A DNA stretch of 6,802 nucleotides from a virus (taxonomy: Duplodnaviria; Heunggongvirae; Uroviricota; Caudoviricetes). The translations under genes and the position numbers were made by a program. Below, piece after piece: positions 1 to 6,802 of the stretch (its first letter is position 1; the number at the start of each line of letters is the position of its first letter). The stretch is from the IMG/VR virus record IMGVR_UViG_2563366874_000009; one strand, 5' to 3'. The notes beneath the pieces are model-generated. The model was given only the letters and a program-made list of their open reading frames with translations. It did not search any database and was not told the origin of the DNA.

Positions 1-102
1 TATATAATTATAGATTTATATAAAAAGTGCTTTACAGGTGGGAAAAAATTTCCTATGGTTATACCCGAAACCGAGCGATACCCGCCCTGGTTAAACCGGA
101 GA
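1..102. repeat. Terminal direct repeat, copy 1 (identical to 6701..6802); implies circular or tandem unit of 6700 bp
   Basis: Exact identity of bases 1..102 with 6701..6802 by direct reading; contains junction motif A and the 5' end of the first ORF. Confidence 0.9.
31..59 (+). promoter_or_regulatory. Putative sigma70-type promoter for the DUF3560-like gene
   Basis: TTTACA (31..36), 17 nt spacer, TATGGT (54..59); lies just downstream of AT-rich motif A. If used, it would exclude ATG 55 as the start and favour ATG 109. Confidence 0.3.
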
Positions 103-108
103 AATCTG

Positions 109-1176
109 ATGAATAAACAAGTAATTATTTCTGACTGGATCAACAACCCTAACAGCCTGTTAAGCACTGATACTGGCTACCTATTACGCCATGTTAATGG
201 TCGTATGGTCAAAAGCGATGAGCACGAAACCTTTTTCTTTGTTGAAGACGATGGGCGTATCTATGAGGATGGTTACTCTTATGAAGCCCAAACTGGTTGT
301 ATCCCTGCGGAGCTGGTGGATGTAACAGAAGATCTGCGCAAAGCATGGCTTGAACAGCAGCAGCGCGGAGATGATTACGTAAACACCTATCAGGAACGCC
401 AGAACGCGCGTCTTGCCCGATATATTGCTCGTGCAGAAAAAGCCAGAAAAGAAGGTGCGGTAGCGCGTAAGCGAGCGCATGACCTGTTGGATGTGATCCC
501 GTTAGGCCAGCCGATTTTAGTTGACCATTATAGCGCGAAAGGCCATCGCCGCCGTTTGTCTAAAGCTGATGCGTTATTCAGAAAAGCGTTTGTTGAATGC
601 GAAAGTAAAGCATCACACTACGAGAGCAAAGCCGCAGGTGTTGGTCGTAATGGAATTTCGTCTGATGATCCTGATGCGCTATTTAAGTTGCTTCGTAAGC
701 TGCAAGGCTGCATGAAGTCACACGTCAAAATGAAGGCCGCAAATAAGGCCATTCGCAAATACAAAAAAGACCAATTACAGCAGCTTTCTGCATTAATCGA
801 TCTCAGGTTTACAGAAAGCGAAGCCAAAGAGTTACTGGCCGGAGATTTCTGTGGGCACATCGGATTCCCTTCATACGCACTGAGCAACAATAACGCCGAA
901 ATCAAACGACTACAGAGCCGTATTAAGGAGCTTGAATCGGTCAAGTCTGTAACAGGAGCACAGCGCGAAGAATACGACGGCTTTTCTATGGAGATAGATC
1001 CAGAGGATAACCGCATCCTGTTTTATTTCCCTGGCAAACCAGAGGCAAACATTCGTTCGCTGCTTAAATCACGCGCCTTTAAGTGGAGTCCAACCCGTAA
1101 TGCATGGGTTCGCAAGATTACTCCAAACGCCCTGGCTGATGCCCGATATCTAAAAGAATCGCTATTGAAAGCCTGA
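109..1176 (+). CDS. DUF3560-like protein (function unknown; family often found in prophage/plasmid accessory regions)
   Basis: ORF 55..1176 in track; GGAG at 98..101 is 7 nt upstream of ATG 109, whereas ATG 55 has no well-spaced SD. Central motif GQPILVDHYSAKGHRRR plus flanking Arg/Ala-rich helices match my recollection of DUF3560. Alternative start 55. Confidence 0.55.
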   Translation: MNKQVIISDWINNPNSLLSTDTGYLLRHVNGRMVKSDEHETFFFVEDDGRIYEDGYSYEAQTGCIPAELVDVTEDLRKAWLEQQQRGDDYVNTYQERQNARLARYIARAEKARKEGAVARKRAHDLLDVIPLGQPILVDHYSAKGHRRRLSKADALFRKAFVECESKASHYESKAAGVGRNGISSDDPDALFKLLRKLQGCMKSHVKMKAANKAIRKYKKDQLQQLSALIDLRFTESEAKELLAGDFCGHIGFPSYALSNNNAEIKRLQSRIKELESVKSVTGAQREEYDGFSMEIDPEDNRILFYFPGKPEANIRSLLKSRAFKWSPTRNAWVRKITPNALADARYLKESLLKA

Positions 1177-1187
1177 CAGTAAGCCTA

Positions 1188-1207
1188 CGGCGGGACGTCT
1201 CCCGCCG
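1188..1207 (+). terminator. Perfect 8 bp inverted repeat hairpin (CGGCGGGA / TCCCGCCG) 12 nt after the ORF stop; possible intrinsic terminator
   Basis: GC-rich stem with 4 nt loop, followed by AT-rich sequence with a T-run only further downstream (TATATAGAATTATATATTT). Confidence 0.35.
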
Positions 1208-1240
1208 TATATAGAATTATATATTTATATAAATGTATAA
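1208..1240. repeat. AT-rich junction motif, copy B (ATAGAATTATATA-TTTATATAAA)
   Basis: Shares a 13-mer ATAGAATTATATA and a 10-mer TTTATATAAA with copy A (which has an extra 8 bp ATTATAGA between them); lies between block 1 and block 2. Confidence 0.7.
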
Positions 1241-1253
1241 GGACGCCTCGGCA

Positions 1254-1535
1254 ATGAAACGCAAAATTATTAACCCCCAAGATGTGATTAATTTCCTGAC
1301 CGATCACCCATGTTCAAAAGTGGACGTAATCGCGGAGCACATTGGTGTGTCGCAGAACTCTATGCGTTGCAGACTGAGAAGCATGGTTGCCGAAGGACAG
1401 ATAACAACCAGGAAAATAAATGGTTGCCTGTACTACTCCGCTAAACCGGAATTGCCATTTGGCATGAATCCTAACTCCATGTTGTTTAACACCTTATTAG
1501 CCAAAGTTAAGCCGTTGAGAGGGGCTGTGGCATGA
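1254..1535 (+). CDS. Small winged-helix/HTH-like DNA-binding protein (putative regulator), first gene of the coupled operon
   Basis: ORF 1233..1535 in track; AGGA about 10 nt upstream of ATG 1254, ATG 1233 has no SD. Segment VDVIAEHIGVSQNSMRCRLRSMVAEGQI looks like an HTH. Stop overlaps next start (ATGA at 1532). Confidence 0.45.
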   Translation: MKRKIINPQDVINFLTDHPCSKVDVIAEHIGVSQNSMRCRLRSMVAEGQITTRKINGCLYYSAKPELPFGMNPNSMLFNTLLAKVKPLRGAVA

Positions 1536-1897
1536 GCATCAAAACCCATACCGGAATAATCATTACCAATGATGGTGAGAAAAAAGTGAAGTTGCGCGAG
1601 ACGCCGACAACCTGGTGTGTTGGTCCGAAAGAAACATATCGCAAGGAAGATGGCCGTCGTTGTGGGGCACCACTTTCCCGCCGTCGCCTCCTCTTGAGCA
1701 CGATAAAACCTATCGGGCAGGTTGAGCAACCAACGACTCCGGTAACGAAGATTTCAGACAAGAGTCTGGCAAACCTGATCGCTGATGCGGACAAGGTGCT
1801 GGAGCGGAACACCCCCGTTGCAGATGAGGAATGGTGGCAGGATTTCCGAGCCGCAATGCTAGAGCTTCAGGAACGTCGTCGGGAGGAGTTGAAGTGA
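1532..1897 (+). CDS. Hypothetical protein (121 aa)
   Basis: ORF in track; ATGA overlap with upstream stop and GTGA overlap with downstream start indicate translational coupling; no family recognised. Confidence 0.5.
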   Translation: MSIKTHTGIIITNDGEKKVKLRETPTTWCVGPKETYRKEDGRRCGAPLSRRRLLLSTIKPIGQVEQPTTPVTKISDKSLANLIADADKVLERNTPVADEEWWQDFRAAMLELQERRREELK

Positions 1898-2085
1898 ACA
1901 AGAAAAATGCCGGATGGGTCAGGCCAATGAAGGCGAATAAACATCATTATTTTAATGAAGGTGAAGTAACCAGCATTTGCGGCCGTTGGATGTATTTTGG
2001 TGATTACCGTGAGCCAGACACTTTTGAGAGTCCTGATGATTGCGTGTCTTGTCGCCGGAAATTGAACAAGGTGGCTTCTAAATGA
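1894..2085 (+). CDS. Small hypothetical protein (63 aa) with three Cys
   Basis: In frame with track ORF 1831..2085; GTG 1894 overlaps upstream stop (GTGA) and stop overlaps next ATG (ATGA at 2082). Start codon choice uncertain. Confidence 0.35.
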   Translation: MNKKNAGWVRPMKANKHHYFNEGEVTSICGRWMYFGDYREPDTFESPDDCVSCRRKLNKVASK

Positions 2086-2702
2086 AAGAACGTGGTGTTG
2101 TTTTTAATGACGATATGGTTAGGGCCATCCTCGAAGGAAGGAAGACGCAGACTCGCCGACCTGTAAAAAATGTCAGGGCCGATAACTGCCTGGTTATCCG
2201 TAAACCGACAAAGAAACGCAATGGTGTCTATACCCACGTTATGGATGCACCGGAACATGGTTTATGCCCGTTCGGTAACGTTGGTGATCGCATATGGGTC
2301 CGTGAAACATTCAACGCTTTTTGGCTGGATAACGATGTCATTCAGGAAATCAAAGATGGTGTCTCTCTGGCTTCTGAACTGTGTGATTACAAGGCTGATT
2401 ACTCAGATAGTAGCAAGCCAGCTGAGGGCTGGACCCCGTCGATTCACATGCCGCGCTGGGCTTCGCGTATTTTGCTGGAAATTACCGACGTGCGTGTGGA
2501 ACGGCTGCATGACATGAGCGAGGCAGATGCTAAAGCGGAAGGCGCATCTCCGGCGACGTACAAGATTACACCGCCGGAAGCGGTTTATCGCGTTGGCTTT
2601 GGTGATATCTGGCGCGGTATTTACGGGCAAGAGAACTGGCTATCTAACCCGTGGGTATGGGTAATTGAGTTTAAACGTATTCAGGGGGCAACCAGTGAGT
2701 AA
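2082..2702 (+). CDS. ASCH-like domain protein (PUA-fold; predicted nucleic-acid binding or modified-base recognition)
   Basis: N-terminal MVRAILEGRKTQTRR resembles the ASCH GxKxxExR signature region and DRIWVRE the second conserved motif; assignment from memory of this common prophage family. Confidence 0.5.
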   Translation: MKERGVVFNDDMVRAILEGRKTQTRRPVKNVRADNCLVIRKPTKKRNGVYTHVMDAPEHGLCPFGNVGDRIWVRETFNAFWLDNDVIQEIKDGVSLASELCDYKADYSDSSKPAEGWTPSIHMPRWASRILLEITDVRVERLHDMSEADAKAEGASPATYKITPPEAVYRVGFGDIWRGIYGQENWLSNPWVWVIEFKRIQGATSE

Positions 2703-2952
2703 TTCCGCACGGCTACAGCTTGGTTTTTCACCGCTATCAAAAACCATCGTGTTGGCCAAAATGCGCGATTTAGGTGACGGAACAAAACGCCGTGTAGGCA
2801 ATGATCGCGGTCGTGATGTAACCAACGAGGCCGCACAACTCGTTTGGCATCTTGTCATGGCAGAAGGCGGTGAAATCAATTGGGAGCTGGATGATGGTTC
2901 TCGCATGGTGTTAAGGGCAGAAAAGCAGGGGGCAAACGATGAAAAACCGTAA
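2695..2952 (+). CDS. Hypothetical protein (85 aa)
   Basis: In frame with track ORF 2665..2952; GGGGG at 2684..2688 is 6 nt upstream of GTG 2695, which overlaps the upstream stop (GTGAGTAA). Alternative start ATG 2665 or 2761. Confidence 0.4.
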   Translation: MSNSARLQLGFSPLSKTIVLAKMRDLGDGTKRRVGNDRGRDVTNEAAQLVWHLVMAEGGEINWELDDGSRMVLRAEKQGANDEKP

Positions 2953-3133
2953 AGCAAAGATTCTGTTAGTTCGTAGAAACGCTCCTGGCGTCTGGCAGTG
3001 GGTGAGACTCAGCAACCGACGGATGGGGTTAATGAAACATTACGGGATGATGGATTGTGGTTTTTGCAAAAAGCCCAGCGCGGCGCAAAACCGCTGGAAA
3101 AACCACTGTTATCTGCGCACTAAAGGAGAGTGA
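2939..3133 (+). CDS. Small basic Trp/Cys-containing hypothetical protein (64 aa)
   Basis: ORF in track; GGGGG about 7 nt upstream of ATG 2939, start overlaps upstream stop. Composition is unusual, so it could be a spurious frame. Confidence 0.3.
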   Translation: MKNRKAKILLVRRNAPGVWQWVRLSNRRMGLMKHYGMMDCGFCKKPSAAQNRWKNHCYLRTKGE

Positions 3134-3134
3134 T

Positions 3135-3563
3135 GTGACCACTTTTACCGACAAAGAAATGATTAAAGAAATCAAAGAGCGCATAGGCAGCTTGGACGTT
3201 AGAGACAATATTGAGCGCCGTGCTTATGAAATTGCACTGGCATCACTGGAAGCAGAGCCGGTTGCAGTAAACGACGATATGGCTTACGCATTCCATCACG
3301 CATTGTCAGATTCATCGCTAGGCGCTGATGAAGTAGAGGAAATTAAGGCCGGTTTGCGTGCTGCCTTTGCCAACGTCACTATCCAACCAGAGCCGGTAGT
3401 GCCGGATGATGGGCGCGAAAAGTTCGAAGCACTTGTCAGGTTTCATGCGGGTGATAAAAACCATGAAACATTATTGCTTCGTGCCAACGAAGGGATGAAT
3501 TACCAGGACCCGAATGTTGATCTGGCGTGGATATTCTGGAAGTCCAGTCGTGAACATATATAA
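3135..3563 (+). CDS. Acidic hypothetical protein (142 aa), last gene of the coupled operon
   Basis: In frame with track ORF 3057..3563; AAGGAG at 3124..3129 is 5 nt upstream of GTG 3135. Alternative start GTG 3057. No Cys, so not a Zn-finger Q-type antiterminator. Confidence 0.5.
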   Translation: MTTFTDKEMIKEIKERIGSLDVRDNIERRAYEIALASLEAEPVAVNDDMAYAFHHALSDSSLGADEVEEIKAGLRAAFANVTIQPEPVVPDDGREKFEALVRFHAGDKNHETLLLRANEGMNYQDPNVDLAWIFWKSSREHI

Positions 3564-3579
3564 GCTGTAGTGAGAAGCC

Positions 3580-3759
3580 ATGCGCTTACGAGCAGTATTC
3601 AGATATTCAGAGCGGGTAATGAAGCACATACAACCGAAAACATGGCAGAAACTGGACTCTATGGGAGTTAAGTTGGAGAAGATTACTCAACTTAAGCAGT
3701 GGCATATCGGCGAATATTATGGAAGTCCTGGTCGGGATGTTCGGTTGGTAAAAAGTTGA
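3580..3759 (+). CDS. Possible small ORF (59 aa) in the leader region, absent from the ORF track
   Basis: Read by hand: ATG 3580 to TGA 3757..3759, with internal ATG 3619; non-repetitive peptide; weak SD; antisense to track ORF 3607..3789. Confidence 0.2.
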   Translation: MRLRAVFRYSERVMKHIQPKTWQKLDSMGVKLEKITQLKQWHIGEYYGSPGRDVRLVKS

Positions 3760-3904
3760 ACATTGCTTTTTTATTGATCGATTAACCACGATATGAAGGT
3801 TTTTTTATGGGGAAACCTTGTTTTAGGTGGTAACTGGGTGTAGTGTTTCATTTAACGTAGTAAAACTGCGTTAAGCGATTACCGCGTAATTTGTTGCTTT
3901 ATGA
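3760..3904 (+). promoter_or_regulatory. Structured leader upstream of the lysis cassette (candidate late promoter / antitermination region)
   Basis: Hairpin AAGGTTT..AAACCTT (3796..3819) and imperfect inverted repeat TTAACGTAG..CTGCGTTAA; several weak -35/-10 candidates (e.g. TTGAAC at 3756) but none convincing. Confidence 0.3.
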
Positions 3905-3936
3905 AGCCCTGCCTTTTTCGGCGGGGCTTTTTTTTT
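3905..3936 (+). terminator. Rho-independent terminator directly upstream of the holin RBS (tR'-like position)
   Basis: 9 bp stem AGCCCTGCC / GGCGGGGCT with one G-U wobble, 6 nt loop, followed by a 9-T run; orientation-specific for the + strand. Confidence 0.6.
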
Positions 3937-3949
3937 AACGAGGATTTCA

Positions 3950-4345
3950 ATGTCAGCAGAACCAATTTCCGGTACGGCCGTTGCTGCTGGTGGCCTGATG
4001 GGGGCCAGCGTTTTTGGTATTGCAACTGGTATTGATTACGGCGTTGTATTCGGGGCATTTGCTGGCGCTGTTTTCTATGTTGCTACAGCGGTGAATATTA
4101 GCCGTCTCAAGCTGATTGGCTATTTCTTTACATCGTTCATTGTTGGAGTGATTGGAGCGCCGTTAGTTGGCTCATTTCTTGCCAAATGGACCAGCTACAA
4201 CGATCGTCCTCTTGATGCACTTGGTGCGGTTATTGTGGCTGCATTGACAATTAAAATCCTCACGTTCGTAAACAGCCAGGATCTCGGTAGCATCTTTGGA
4301 ATGCTTTCCCGCTTACGTGGAGGGGGTTCAAATGGTAAGCAGTGA
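3950..4345 (+). CDS. Putative holin (multi-pass membrane protein)
   Basis: GAGGA SD before ATG 3950; three to four hydrophobic helices rich in Gly/Ala; charged C-terminus; sits immediately upstream of the endolysin. Confidence 0.6.
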   Translation: MSAEPISGTAVAAGGLMGASVFGIATGIDYGVVFGAFAGAVFYVATAVNISRLKLIGYFFTSFIVGVIGAPLVGSFLAKWTSYNDRPLDALGAVIVAALTIKILTFVNSQDLGSIFGMLSRLRGGGSNGKQ

Positions 4346-4628
4346 CCCGTCAGCACTGATTAATGCGGTGCTTTGCACAGTAATAGTAATGGCGCTGATG
4401 CTTTATCGACGGAAAGACTCCAGGCATCGTCCATTTGTTTCCTTTCTGGCTTATATCTACGTCATTGTATACGCCAATGTTCCCTTCCGTTATGTGTTCG
4501 GTCTTTATCAAGAATCCCACTGGCTGGTGGTTATTGGAAATCTGATTACCTGCATCGTTGTTCTGTATTTCAGGGGCAATCTGGCGCGAATAGTTGACGC
4601 ATTAGGGTTTAATCATGACCAAAGATGA
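4332..4628 (+). CDS. Second lysis-cassette membrane protein (holin or antiholin-like, about 3 TM segments)
   Basis: In frame with track ORF 4296..4628; GGAGGGGG SD 5-7 nt upstream of ATG 4332; overlaps holin 3' end and endolysin start. Confidence 0.45.
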   Translation: MVSSDPSALINAVLCTVIVMALMLYRRKDSRHRPFVSFLAYIYVIVYANVPFRYVFGLYQESHWLVVIGNLITCIVVLYFRGNLARIVDALGFNHDQR

Positions 4629-5157
4629 GATTTTTAACAGCGTTCTTGGAAAAGAGGGCGGCTATGTGGATCACCCTGACGACAAGGGAGGCCCAACAAA
4701 GTGGGGCATTACTCAGAACACTGCCCGTGCTCATGGATACCGTGGCGATATGCGCGATTTAACCCGCGAACAGGCACTGGAAATCCTTGAGGCTGATTAC
4801 TGGTACGGACCACGCTTTGATCAGGTGGCCGCATTATCCTCTGATATTGCCGCAGAGCTGTGTGATACCGGTGTGAATATGGGGCCAACAGTGGCGTCCA
4901 AAATGCTTCAACGCTGGCTGAATGTGTTCAATCTGCGTGGGAAGCTGTATCCCGATTTGGATGCAGATGGACGAATCGGTCCACGTACCATTAATGCGCT
5001 GCGTGCTTATCTTGGGAATCGGGGAAAAGACGGCGAACGGGTGATGCTGACGTCGCTGAACTGTACGCAGGGCGAACGCTATCTGGAGCTGGCGGAGAAG
5101 CGCGAGGCGAATGAGTCGTTTGTCTACGGCTGGATGAAAGAGCGAGTGGTGGTATGA
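4615..5157 (+). CDS. Endolysin, glycoside hydrolase family 108 N-domain with peptidoglycan-binding C-domain
   Basis: N-terminal LGKEGGYVDHPDDKGGPTKWGIT is the GH108 signature region as I recall it; stop overlaps i-spanin start (ATGA at 5154). Confidence 0.8.
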   Translation: MTKDEIFNSVLGKEGGYVDHPDDKGGPTKWGITQNTARAHGYRGDMRDLTREQALEILEADYWYGPRFDQVAALSSDIAAELCDTGVNMGPTVASKMLQRWLNVFNLRGKLYPDLDADGRIGPRTINALRAYLGNRGKDGERVMLTSLNCTQGERYLELAEKREANESFVYGWMKERVVV

Positions 5158-5432
5158 CTGGTTTGAAGGCCGTTTTGTCATTTATTGGCACAATTATATT
5201 GGTTGCATTCGGCGCGTTTGGTTTTGGTCGTATGAAGGGGCGAGAAAAGGCCGAAGATGAAGCTGAAAAGCAGCGCATAAATGAGAATGCAGCCGCCGTA
5301 AAAGCCACTGCGGAGCGGCGTATAGAAGTGACAAAAGAGGTGGGCAATGTACAGCAGAGTGTTAACCATATGGCTGATGACGATGTTGATCGCGAGCTGC
5401 GGGAGTCGTGGAAGCGTCCCGGTGGTGGTTGA
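5154..5432 (+). CDS. i-spanin (Rz-like; N-terminal TM helix then charged periplasmic helical region)
   Basis: Hydrophobic segment LKAVLSFIGTIILVAFGAFGF followed by Glu/Lys/Ala-rich sequence; position after endolysin; o-spanin starts inside it in another frame. Confidence 0.6.
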   Translation: MTGLKAVLSFIGTIILVAFGAFGFGRMKGREKAEDEAEKQRINENAAAVKATAERRIEVTKEVGNVQQSVNHMADDDVDRELRESWKRPGGG

Positions 5433-5556
5433 TACTGCCTGTGATTGGGTAAAGCCCATCTACCTGACTGATCACGATATCGATGTTATGGACCGCCAGA
5501 CAAAGAAAGATATTCTGGCTCATAACAGGGCATGGGAAATCAACTGCCCCAAGTAA
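5347..5556 (+). CDS. o-spanin (Rz1-like outer-membrane lipoprotein), overlapped architecture
   Basis: AGAGGTGGG SD before ATG 5347; signal peptide MYSRVLTIWLMTMLIASC with lipobox IAS-C; starts within the i-spanin gene and extends past it. Confidence 0.6.
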   Translation: MYSRVLTIWLMTMLIASCGSRGSVPVVVDTACDWVKPIYLTDHDIDVMDRQTKKDILAHNRAWEINCPK

Positions 5557-5590
5557 TATATATTTCTATAATTATATAAATATATAGTTA
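5557..5590. repeat. AT-rich junction motif, copy C (inverted relative to copy B)
   Basis: TTATATAAATATATA matches the reverse complement of the copy B core (about 17/21); begins directly after the o-spanin stop. Confidence 0.6.
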
Positions 5591-5646
5591 CAACATTCTA
5601 TGCGCTTTTCTCATGGGCGCACGCATCAACCATGTTTGTCTGATAT

Positions 5647-5700
5647 GCCGCCGCGCCCAAAAATCCTGAATTTATTGGCTGGGATTTTCGTGCGCGGCGC
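5647..5700. other. Long interrupted inverted repeat 26 bp upstream of the tRNA
   Basis: Outer 8 bp GC stem (5649..5656 with 5692..5699) plus inner 7 bp stem AAAATCC/GGATTTT (5660..5666 with 5682..5688) around a 15 nt loop; no T-run follows. Confidence 0.4.
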
Positions 5701-5725
5701 CACACCAGACAAACAGATCAAATAT

Positions 5726-5801
5726 GGCCCCTTAGCTCAGTGGTTAGAGCAGGCGACTCATAATCGCACGGTCATCGGTTCAAATCCGGTAGGGGCCACC
5801 A
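5726..5801 (+). tRNA. tRNA with CAU anticodon; closest by memory to enterobacterial tRNA-Ile2 (lysidine-modified, reads AUA), phage-borne variant
   Basis: Cloverleaf read by hand: 7 bp acceptor stem GGCCCCT/AGGGGCC, D-arm GCTC-AGTGGTTA-GAGC, anticodon loop CTCATAA (CAT at 5759..5761), T-loop TTCAAAT, 3' ACCA. The 5' half matches my recollection of E. coli ileX; T-arm differs. Confidence 0.85.
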
Positions 5802-6010
5802 ATTCACTCTCACACATAAAGATAAGCGCGGTGGAGTTACTTCCTTCGTGCTCATCTTTATGCGTGCCTGGTGCGCATTTCGGGCGAACGTGGGGCTAAG
5901 TTACAGGCAGGGCCTGTTATCCGCAAAGGGGTAAAAGCTGGAGCGGCACGGAACTGTAGCCGTGTTACCAAAACAGCGTTGTCGGGCGATATCCGGCACA
6001 CAACAGGCAA

Positions 6011-6041
6011 GGGCATTAATCAGTCTGGTTAGTGCCCTTTT
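6011..6041 (+). terminator. Hairpin terminator downstream of the tRNA region
   Basis: 9 bp stem GGGCATTAA / TTAGTGCCC (one G-U), 9 nt loop, then TTTT; T-run is short so strength is moderate. Confidence 0.4.
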
Positions 6042-6109
6042 CGTTGCGTCTGCTGTAGAGCTGGCCAGCGTTATGACTGCCGGAGATAAGCGCCGGAGGC
6101 ACAACTAAC

Positions 6110-6697
6110 ATGGAGGCAATTGCATTGTTTAATCTGATTTATGCAGATCCCCCCTGGGAATACAAAGATAAGTGTAAGGATGGGAATCGTGGAGCTGGTT
6201 TTAAGTATCCAACGATGAAAGCTGAGGATATTGCTCGTATTCCTGTCTGGCAGCTTGCTAATCCTGAATCGTGTTTGTTGGCCATGTGGTGGGTTCCGAC
6301 TCAGCCAGAAGAAGCGTTGCTGGTGGTGAAAGCATGGGGATTCAGGCTTATGACCATGAAGGGCTTCACATGGAACAAATGTGGTAGCCGACAACCAGAT
6401 AAGCTGGTGATGGGGATGGGGCATATGACTCGTGCAAACAGTGAAGATTGCTTGTTTGCGGTAAAAGGCAAATTGCCGACCCGCCTTGATGCGGGGATCA
6501 TTCAGTCGTTTACATCGCCTCGTCTGGAGCATTCTCGGAAGCCTGATGTGGTTCGTGACAAGCTGGTAAGGCTGTTAGGTGATGTTCCTCGTATTGAGCT
6601 GTTTGCTCGCGGTGATTTACCTGATGGTTGGCATGGCTGGGGCAACCAGTGCAATGGAGGTATCCAGTTGCATGATGCTCTCTGGCAAGTGGCATAG
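6110..6697 (+). CDS. DNA N6-adenine methyltransferase, MT-A70-like family (orphan, no cognate nuclease seen)
   Basis: Catalytic DPPW motif (LIYADPPWEY) near the N-terminus followed by MT-A70-like conserved blocks; GGAGG SD about 9-10 nt upstream; stop TAG 6695..6697 abuts motif A. Confidence 0.75.
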   Translation: MEAIALFNLIYADPPWEYKDKCKDGNRGAGFKYPTMKAEDIARIPVWQLANPESCLLAMWWVPTQPEEALLVVKAWGFRLMTMKGFTWNKCGSRQPDKLVMGMGHMTRANSEDCLFAVKGKLPTRLDAGIIQSFTSPRLEHSRKPDVVRDKLVRLLGDVPRIELFARGDLPDGWHGWGNQCNGGIQLHDALWQVA

Positions 6698-6730
6698 AAT
6701 TATATAATTATAGATTTATATAAAAAGTGC
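6694..6730. repeat. AT-rich junction motif, copy A (ATAGAATTATATA-ATTATAGA-TTTATATAAA); also present at 1..30 through the terminal repeat
   Basis: Begins within the methyltransferase stop codon; shares 13-mer and 10-mer with copy B. Confidence 0.7.
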
Positions 6731-6802
6731 TTTACAGGTGGGAAAAAATTTCCTATGGTTATACCCGAAACCGAGCGATACCCGCCCTGGTTAAACCGGA
6801 GA
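6701..6802. repeat. Terminal direct repeat, copy 2 (identical to 1..102)
   Basis: Exact identity with 1..102 by direct reading. Confidence 0.9.

What the first reader, a model, noticed from the sequence alone, without database searches (positions are those of the whole stretch)
109..1176. Stand-alone DUF3560-like gene bracketed by junction motifs A and B, with its own promoter and terminator
The gene sits as a single-gene module between two copies of the junction motif, with a plausible sigma70 promoter (31..59) and a GC hairpin (1188..1207). DUF3560 proteins, as I recall, recur in prophage and plasmid regions alongside anti-restriction genes, but their function is unknown. The N-terminal roughly 90 residues and C-terminal roughly 140 residues fall outside the conserved core and may carry a distinct activity.
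Basis: partly seen in the sequence, partly recalled or inferred. Interest (0 to 1): 0.45.

Follow-up and report, generated by a model that had tools for sequence, protein, structure and literature searches.

The report
DUF3560 early gene of a phage-plasmid
The gene is a real member of the widespread but uncharacterised DUF3560 family, which plasmids and phages carry among their entry and anti-defence genes, and the AT-rich "junction motifs" around it are probably protein-binding repeat arrays shared with the element's partition locus.

Summary
ORF 109-1176 (355 aa) matches Pfam DUF3560 (E 6e-31). A TTTACA-17-TATGGT promoter lies at 31-59 and a 10-bp GC hairpin at 1186-1209. AT-rich motifs lie on both sides of the gene.

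The window comes from a ~47-49 kb myovirus-type phage-plasmid found in 74 of 5426 complete E. coli genomes, and also in Klebsiella, Salmonella and Yersinia phages.

Three corrections:
- The conserved family unit is aa ~92-355, not just the Pfam core. Only the acidic N-terminal ~90 aa are subfamily-specific.
- The hairpin has no U-tract, and the next gene has no promoter of its own. The gene is therefore probably the first gene of an operon.
- The motifs are phased arrays of 8-bp TTATATAA units. There are eight per plasmid, three around parA and three in front of near-identical promoter cassettes. A Serratia relative has the same layout with a different unit (TTAAATAW).

Best reading: a DNA-binding establishment or anti-defence factor, with arrays probably bound by a ParG-like protein. 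The function is untested. Interest is moderate.

The parts
1..25 (.). Array A: phased 8-bp units (~TTATATAA). It is cut by the window edge and spans about -78 to -43 relative to the inferred transcription start in the full plasmid.
   Evidence: The syntenic array is present in Klebsiella, Salmonella and the Yersinia phage.
31..59 (+). Sigma70-type promoter TTTACA-17-TATGGT, part of a 102-nt cassette present three times per plasmid.
41..53 (.). Palindrome GGAAA-N3-TTTCC in the promoter spacer, a candidate operator.
   Evidence: The same palindrome sits in the spacer of a fourth promoter at L001 46941-46974. The Serratia cassettes have AGGA-N7-TCCT at the same place.
60..108 (+). Shared leader with a small predicted stem-loop and the GGAGA Shine-Dalgarno (98-102).
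   Evidence: z = -2.05; identical in all copies within a genome.
109..1176 (+). CDS of 355 aa, a DUF3560-family protein.
109..378 (+). N-terminal beta-rich acidic domain (aa 1-90, pI 4.3). It is found only in the phage-plasmid and leading-region subfamily.
382..1173 (+). Conserved family unit (aa 92-355): a basic helical bundle (the Pfam core is aa 94-216, nt 388-756) plus the C-terminal domain.
949..1173 (+). C-terminal alpha/beta domain (aa 281-355) with a fold like the T4 MotA C-terminal DNA-binding domain.
1186..1209 (+). Conserved 10-bp GC hairpin without a U-tract: a weak or conditional terminator, or an RNA 3'-end stabiliser.
1207..1240 (.). Array B: four phased 8-bp units that end 14 nt before the next gene's ATG (1254) and abut its Shine-Dalgarno.
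5554..5595 (.). Array C, the same repeat type, located after the lysis cassette.
6692..6802 (+). Array D plus a second copy of the promoter cassette. Positions 6701-6802 are identical to 1-102.

Best explanation
The window is the early and accessory region of a ~47-49 kb myovirus-type phage-plasmid with RepA, a type Ib ParA, a toxin-antitoxin pair and a CI-like repressor.

Gene 109-1176 encodes a three-part protein:
- an acidic beta-rich N-terminal 'header' domain;
- the basic DUF3560 helical bundle;
- a basic C-terminal domain with a MotA-C-terminal-domain-like fold.

I read it as a non-enzymatic, DNA-binding establishment or anti-defence factor that acts just after the element's DNA enters a cell. 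It is the phage-plasmid counterpart of the DUF3560/YdbA genes in conjugative-plasmid leading regions and of the DUF3560 modules inside injected polyvalent proteins.

It is transcribed from one of three near-identical cassettes. Each cassette is a repeat array, a sigma70 promoter with a spacer palindrome, and a shared leader with Shine-Dalgarno. The gene is most likely the first gene of an operon that reads through a U-less hairpin.

The 'junction motifs' are arrays of 8-bp TTATATAA units. They are most likely bound by the 82-aa ParG-like (ribbon-helix-helix-like) protein encoded after parA. On this reading they act as dispersed centromere and operator sites. Their position at about -43 to -78 would let that protein shut the cassette promoters once the plasmid state is established.

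Shown: family membership, domain layout, genomic contexts, non-random and positionally conserved arrays, and covariation of the array unit.
Inferred: DNA binding, timing of action, the identity of the array binder, and repression.
For: Family:
- PF12083 E 6e-31 and full-length phrog_6744.
- 5796 clusters at 50% identity.

Context:
- The gene is syntenic in the E. coli, Klebsiella, Salmonella and Yersinia-phage elements.
- A 53%-identical full-length homologue is the oriT-proximal gene of an F-like leading region that also carries a methyltransferase, ArdA, SSB, PsiB and PsiA.
- Other homologues lie beside ArdA, LPD29 and TrwC, beside SSB and a methylase, beside SRAP, AcrE1, AcrF3 and Aca, or directly after psiB.
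- The module is fused to ArdC-N, LPD25/29/30, MPTase or ART in polyvalent proteins.
- DUF3560/YdbA is family 28 of the 'Top 100 leading region families' sheet in Samuel et al. 2024, supplementary file 3.

Structure:
- AF2 model with pLDDT 91.9.
- The core and C-terminal domain have pI 9.5-10, with conserved Arg, Lys, Phe and Trp.

Arrays:
- 46 matches against 0.06 expected. The eight sites are all intergenic, and three lie around parA.
- They occupy the same positions in three other lineages.
- The Serratia relative has the same layout with the unit TTAAATAW at every site, and its small protein is 39-40% identical.
- No such arrays lie near repA.
- Cassette copies evolve in concert.
Against: - No experiment exists for any DUF3560 protein.
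- Neither the whole protein nor the helical core has a structural relative.
- The MotA similarity is fold-level only, at 6-7% identity.
- The ribbon-helix-helix assignment of the 82-aa protein rests on sequence pattern alone. Pfam and PDB sequence searches found nothing.
- The covariation shows that an element-specific binder exists, not which protein it is.
- AT-rich DNA at -40 to -60 can act simply as an UP element.
- A dsDNA-injecting phage lacks the ssDNA entry stage of conjugation, so the leading-region analogy may not carry over.
- Some databases label this family 'hydrolase'.
Confidence: 0.5

Rival explanations
1. The AT-rich motifs have no dedicated binding protein. They are generic UP elements, curved or H-NS/IHF-bound DNA, or conserved patches that serve only as homology for exchanging gene modules.
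For: - The arrays sit at operon and module borders. Variable cargo begins right after array B: an HTH gene in E. coli, a DGQHR protein in Salmonella and Lar in Serratia.
- The position at -43 to -78 fits an UP element.
- AT-rich DNA attracts nucleoid proteins (general knowledge).
Against: - The strict 8-bp phasing.
- The same arrays surround parA.
- In the Serratia element all six arrays switch together to a different unit while keeping position and architecture. A generic AT-rich element would not do this.
Confidence: 0.15
2. The DUF3560 protein is an enzyme. It could be a hydrolase, as some database names suggest, or a replication or priming accessory factor, as the PHROG 'primase' label suggests.
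For: - Invariant polar residues H140, S142, R147, S184 and D187.
- 'Hydrolase / HD superfamily hydrolase' names attached to family 28 in Samuel et al. 2024, supplementary file 3.
- phrog_19458 'primase' matches aa 173-351.
Against: - No HD or other catalytic Pfam domain.
- The conserved residues lie in two loops separated by a ~35-residue helix in the model. They are unlikely to form one pocket.
- The primase label probably comes from multidomain proteins.
Confidence: 0.12
3. It is a transcription factor of the element itself. It would use its MotA-like C-terminal domain to activate or repress the phage-plasmid's middle or late promoters.
For: - Fold similarity to the DNA-binding domain of T4 MotA.
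- Its position at the head of an early operon.
- A basic protein.
Against: - The same module occurs in thousands of unrelated plasmids, in leading regions and inside polyvalent proteins. This argues against an element-specific regulator.
- There is no MotA N-terminal domain.
- The Serratia relative keeps the promoter cassettes but lacks the gene.
Confidence: 0.1
4. It is a lysogeny-expressed accessory gene that benefits the host, for example through defence or superinfection exclusion, and is not an entry factor.
For: It has its own sigma70 promoter, independent of the CI-controlled early promoter.
Against: - No match to any PADLOC defence model.
- Homologues cluster with anti-defence genes, not defence genes.
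- The gene is conserved in this slot in four versions of the element (E. coli, Klebsiella, Salmonella, Yersinia phage), so it is not variable cargo there.
Confidence: 0.08

Closest known systems
DUF3560 (PF12083) / YdbA-type leading-region family of conjugative plasmids (family 28 of the 'Top 100 leading region families' sheet in Samuel et al. 2024, Nature, supplementary file 3)
   Same: - Significant Pfam match.
- A 53%-identical full-length homologue lies next to oriT in an F-like leading region with ArdA, SSB, PsiB and PsiA.
- Function is uncharacterised in both.
   Different: - This copy sits in the early region of a tailed phage-plasmid that has no relaxase or T4SS, so its DNA presumably enters as dsDNA.
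- It is driven by a sigma70 cassette, not an ssDNA promoter.
- It carries an extra acidic N-terminal domain.
- IncF YdbA itself was too distant for tblastn to retrieve.
Modules of polyvalent proteins of phages and conjugative elements (Iyer et al. 2017, J Bacteriol; ArdC-N, MPTase, ART, LPD domains)
   Same: The aa 92-355 unit occurs inside 0.4-2.9 kaa proteins with ArdC-N, MPTase-PolyVal, ART-PolyVal or LPD25/29/30. That paper notes that solo versions of such modules are common.
   Different: - This is a solo version.
- DUF3560 is not named in that paper's main text.
- Delivery with the DNA is not shown.
T4 MotA C-terminal 'double-wing' DNA-binding domain (PDB 5jlt, 6k4y)
   Different: - Identity is 6-7%.
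- There is no MotA N-terminal domain and no AsiA or sigma-appropriation context.
- DNA binding is untested.
Repeat arrays bound by ribbon-helix-helix partition proteins or global regulators: ParG/parH of TP228 (8-bp periodicity) and omega of pSM19035 (heptad arrays at several promoters). Also the dispersed sopC centromeres of phage-plasmid N15. All three are from my own knowledge.
   Same: - A small type Ib ParA followed by an ~80-aa protein with a basic tail and a beta-helix-helix pattern.
- Short phased repeats upstream of parA.
- The same repeats dispersed at other promoters across the replicon.
   Different: - The unit sequence (TTATATAA) and the element family are new.
- Three arrays are built into duplicated promoter cassettes.
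- Two arrays abut ribosome-binding sites.
- Neither binding nor regulation is demonstrated.

Membership tests
Pfam PF12083 DUF3560 | HMM score above the gathering cut-off | tested here: met
   107.5 bits against 27.2, E 6.4e-31, aa 94-216 matching model positions 2-124 of 124.
PHROG 6744 | Full-length profile match | tested here: met
   E 8e-233, residues 1-355 matching profile positions 1-355 of 355.
Conjugative-plasmid leading-region gene (YdbA-type) | Location between oriT and the establishment genes of a conjugative plasmid | tested here: not met
   The host replicon is a non-mobilizable phage-plasmid without a relaxase. The homologue P0015 does meet the criterion.
Polyvalent-protein module (Iyer et al. 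2017) | The domain recurs fused to ArdC-N, MPTase, ART or LPD domains in large proteins of mobile elements | tested here: met
   The window protein itself is a solo form.
ArdC anti-restriction protein | ArdC-N ssDNA-binding domain plus a C-terminal metallopeptidase | tested here: not met
   No PF08401 or PF18818 hit in the window protein. These domains occur only in fused relatives.
HD-superfamily hydrolase (a database name given to some members) | HD-domain profile match or H..HD..D motif in an HD fold | tested here: not met
MotA C-terminal-domain-like double-wing DNA-binding fold | Structural superposition of the domain | tested here: met
MotA C-terminal-domain-like double-wing DNA-binding fold | DNA binding | not testable with these tools
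   Only indirect support: the domain is basic and has conserved Arg, Lys, Phe and Trp.
Sigma70 promoter | -35 and -10 hexamers with 16-18 bp spacing | tested here: met
   TTTACA-17-TATGGT, 9 of 12 positions. Conserved across lineages. Activity is not testable here.
Intrinsic (Rho-independent) terminator | GC-rich stem-loop immediately followed by a U-tract | tested here: not met
   The stem is present. The tail UAUAUAGA has no U-run, and the scan did not call it.
Type Ib partition system with a ribbon-helix-helix centromere-binding protein | Small Walker-type ParA | tested here: met
   217 aa with CbiA, ParA and MipZ hits.
Type Ib partition system with a ribbon-helix-helix centromere-binding protein | Downstream small protein with a ribbon-helix-helix fold | tested here: inconclusive
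   A basic tail followed by a beta-helix-helix sequence pattern, conserved in the Serratia homologue. No Pfam or PDB hit.
Type Ib partition system with a ribbon-helix-helix centromere-binding protein | Short repeat arrays adjacent to the par operon | tested here: met
   Arrays at L001 5720, 6428 and 6498, and at the equivalent places in Klebsiella, Salmonella and Serratia.

The most novel reading that the evidence does not exclude
The phased repeat arrays and the ParG-like protein form a plasmid-wide entry switch. In a naive cell the three identical cassette promoters fire, one of them driving the DUF3560 operon. They are then silenced as the partition protein accumulates and occupies arrays that also serve as dispersed centromeres. 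This would be a dsDNA-phage equivalent of the transient 'zygotic' expression of conjugative leading regions, with DUF3560 as a shared DNA-binding establishment factor.
Probability: 0.25. Interest if true: 0.65.

Novelty: new member of a known kind. Interest (0 to 1): 0.4.

Why it matters
DUF3560/YdbA is one of the largest uncharacterised gene families in plasmid leading regions, and the module also occurs inside polyvalent proteins.

This phage-plasmid offers a compact, genetically tractable copy. It is even present in E. coli ATCC 25922, and related elements have been deposited as phages isolated on Yersinia pestis. It comes with a defined promoter and a testable structural lead, the MotA-like C-terminal domain.

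Separately, the repeat arrays suggest that a partition protein may double as a global regulator in a common clinical E. coli phage-plasmid. That would matter for how such elements establish and persist.

Tried and rejected
- **PDB sequence search with the family profile.** Nothing.
- **Pfam scans of the N-terminal, middle and C-terminal pieces alone at E <= 10.** Nothing.
- **PADLOC defence models.** No hit, so a defence-gene reading was rejected.
- **Element identity.** I considered the pSLy3/SSU5 group. It is a ~100-kb group and was rejected.
- **Arrays as RepA iterons.** Rejected. No arrays lie near repA, and different repeats occur there.
- **CI repressor control of the cassette.** Rejected. 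The cI-cro intergenic operators are unrelated palindromes.
- **The 82-aa protein.** Pfam, PDB sequence searches and a homologue search gave only close, unannotated relatives, so the ribbon-helix-helix assignment remains an inference.
- **parA promoter.** The scan found no clean sigma70 promoter for parA on the minus strand.
- **Literature.** Only five papers mention DUF3560, and none is functional.

Full report
**Where the window comes from**

Positions 1-2306 are 99.5% identical to the E. coli plasmid pECO-b75 (NZ_CP009861.1, 47.6 kb). The whole window is 97% identical to Yersinia phage vB_YpM_39.

The replicon has repA, a small ParA, a RelE/ParE toxin-antitoxin pair, a CI-like repressor, a lysis cassette and a full P2-like contractile-tail virion module. 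It is a phage-plasmid. It occurs in 74 of 5426 complete E. coli genomes, almost always as a plasmid, including ATCC 25922. Diverged versions exist in Klebsiella aerogenes, Salmonella Concord and Serratia.

**The observation**

- ORF 109-1176 is real. RefSeq annotates it as a 'DUF3560 domain-containing protein'.
- It matches PF12083 at E 6.4e-31 over aa 94-216 and phrog_6744 over its full length.
- The start at 109 is preceded by GGAGA. The longer ORF from position 55 would start inside the -10 hexamer.
- TTTACA-17-TATGGT lies at 31-59. This and its copy at 6731-6759 are the only sigma70-like matches in 6.8 kb, where shuffles give about 10.
- The hairpin is a 10-bp GC stem at 1186-1209. Its stem is invariant and its loop variable in the Klebsiella and Salmonella relatives. 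It has no U-tract and was not called as a terminator.
- The next gene's ATG (1254) lies 14 nt after array B, with no room for a promoter. The next canonical terminator is at 3903-3930.

The DUF3560 gene is therefore more likely the first gene of an operon than a closed one-gene unit.

**The protein**

About 265-aa homologues align to aa 92-355. Invariant residues run from Q134 to R335. An exhaustive search found 5796 clusters at 50% identity. The C-terminal half (aa ~174-351) does also occur on its own in other proteins.

Only aa 1-90 are subfamily-specific. In other members this position holds ArdC-N or LPD25/29/30. The module also sits inside 0.9-2.9 kaa polyvalent proteins with ArdC-N plus MPTase, or with ART.

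AlphaFold gives a confident model (pLDDT 91.9, pTM 0.81) with three parts:
- a small beta-rich N-terminal domain;
- a long helical bundle (aa 67-280);
- a beta-beta-beta-alpha-beta-beta-alpha C-terminal domain.

The N-terminal domain is acidic (pI 4.3). The core and C-terminal domain are basic (pI 9.5-10) and rich in conserved Arg, Lys, Phe and Trp. No catalytic domain or defence model matches.

**Neighbourhoods**

The gene occupies the same slot in the E. coli, Klebsiella, Salmonella and Yersinia-phage elements, after Ref nuclease and DUF1064.

Outside this element family the contexts are:

| Homologue or locus | Neighbours |
|---|---|
| P0015, 53% identical, full length | Last gene before the oriT gap of an F-like leading region with a methyltransferase, YubE, DUF1380, ArdA, SSB, a ParB-like gene, PsiB and PsiA |
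| Dickeya and Xenorhabdus | ArdA, LPD29, KorA/KorB, TrwB/TrwC |
| ENA metagenome contig | SSB, a DNA methylase, TrwB/TrwC |
| P. aeruginosa pBR164 | SRAP, AcrE1, AcrF3, Aca |
| Mesorhizobium plasmid | Directly after psiB |

Samuel et al. (Nature 2024, supplementary file 3) list 'Uncharacterized; DUF3560' (YdbA) as family 28 of the 'Top 100 leading region families' sheet. The pO157 copy is induced about 5-fold by ciprofloxacin. No functional study was found.

**The junction motifs**

They are arrays of three to five phased 8-bp units, WTNTATAW, with consensus TTATATAA. The three-unit pattern gives 46 matches in the plasmid against 0.06 expected. These fall at eight intergenic sites, all within the 1-17 kb maintenance and early region:
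- three lie around parA;
- three lie immediately upstream of the -35 of three copies of a 102-nt cassette (array, promoter, leader and Shine-Dalgarno), each followed by a different gene;
- one lies after the DUF3560 hairpin;
- one lies after the lysis cassette.

This explains why window positions 1-102 equal 6701-6802. The Klebsiella, Salmonella and Yersinia-phage versions have arrays at the same places. Cassette copies within one genome share at least six substitutions that distinguish E. coli from Klebsiella, which indicates concerted evolution.

The most informative comparison is the Serratia phage-plasmid pJSRIV006_2. It keeps the whole layout:
- two arrays upstream of parA;
- three array-promoter-leader cassettes;
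- one array abutting a ribosome-binding site.

Every array there is built from a different unit, TTAAATAW. This rules out generic AT-rich DNA and points to an element-encoded binding protein.

The best candidate is the 82-aa protein encoded after parA. It has a basic disordered tail followed by MAFNVDPEF...SLKEVLTKSFELLK, a beta-helix-helix pattern like ParG, Arc or omega. It is 39-40% identical in Serratia, with changes in the putative DNA-reading strand. No profile or PDB sequence hit confirms the fold. The arrays are not RepA iterons, and the cassette is not under the CI operators.

**Most likely mechanism**

Sub-claim confidences:
- Family membership and context: about 0.95.
- Establishment or anti-defence role: about 0.5.
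- DNA binding: about 0.5.
- Arrays as sites for the ParG-like protein: about 0.5.
- Repression of the cassettes by that protein: about 0.3.

I read the DUF3560 protein as a DNA-binding establishment factor made early after entry. The arrays would couple the cassette promoters to occupancy by the partition protein. The rivals are an enzymatic role, a MotA-like regulator of the element itself, a lysogeny-expressed accessory gene, and generic AT-rich elements. All are less well supported.

**Novelty**

The gene is a new member of a known, uncharacterised family and was already annotated as such. The new points are:
- the true extent of the conserved unit;
- the MotA-like C-terminal domain;
- the link between phage-plasmids and plasmid leading regions;
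- the dispersed, covarying repeat arrays built into duplicated promoter cassettes, which are a new variant of ParG/omega/N15-type systems.

Noticed in passing
window 1-102 and 6701-6802; L001 955-1056, 10264-10371, 17216-17318: A 102-nt cassette (array, promoter, leader, Shine-Dalgarno) is present three times per plasmid in front of unrelated genes. Copies within a genome are homogenised, sharing at least six positions that differ between E. coli and Klebsiella.
   Followed up: yes
window 41-53 and 6741-6753; L001 46950-46962: The palindrome GGAAA-N3-TTTCC sits in the -35/-10 spacer of the cassette promoters and of a fourth, array-less promoter (TTGCCA-17-TACCAT) near repA. The Serratia cassettes carry AGGA-N7-TCCT at the same place. 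This is a candidate operator for a second, unidentified regulator.
   Followed up: partly
window 3778-3935: A sub-threshold but full-length match to the GcvB sRNA model (34.3 bits against a gathering score of 42, E 8e-5). It ends in a strong terminator (3903-3930) only 20 nt before the holin start. It could be a small RNA, or a lambda PR'-tR'-like late leader that needs antitermination.
   Followed up: no
window 5633-5801: A tRNA with anticodon CAT (5726-5801). ARAGORN calls it Met and RefSeq calls it Ile. It is preceded by a 34-nt-arm inverted repeat (5633-5666 / 5682-5715).
   Followed up: no
window 1-6802: Sigma70-like promoter matches are depleted: 2 found against 9.8 +/- 2.7 in shuffles. 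Both are the cassette, which suggests long read-through operons.
   Followed up: partly
window 1207-1256; L001 5707-5754: Two arrays end 12-14 nt before a start codon and abut the Shine-Dalgarno. One precedes the HTH gene after DUF3560. The other precedes the ParG-like gene itself. The Serratia element has the same arrangement before its Lar gene. This may be a transcriptional roadblock site.
   Followed up: partly
window 1894-3563: A mosaic accessory block (DUF7446, Ea22/EaA-like genes) is shared at 87-93% identity with Stx-converting and other lambdoid prophages. It differs between otherwise near-identical phage-plasmids. In Salmonella a DGQHR (DndB-like) gene follows array B instead.
   Followed up: partly
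window 3950-5556: A lysis cassette: two holin-family genes, a GH108 endolysin, and an Rz-like gene (5154-5432) overlapped by an ORF with the lipobox LIASC (5347-5556), probably an Rz1-type o-spanin.
   Followed up: no
window 109-378: The N-terminal 90 aa of the DUF3560 protein are strongly acidic (pI 4.3, net charge about -10). They occupy the place taken by the ssDNA-binding ArdC-N domain in other family members. This could be a protein-binding, DNA-mimicking or autoinhibitory domain.
   Followed up: partly
L016 (Serratia pJSRIV006_2) 14832-37350: The same maintenance and early backbone and the same cassette architecture are joined to a lambda-like siphovirus virion module in place of the myovirus one. 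This element lacks the DUF3560 gene.
   Followed up: partly
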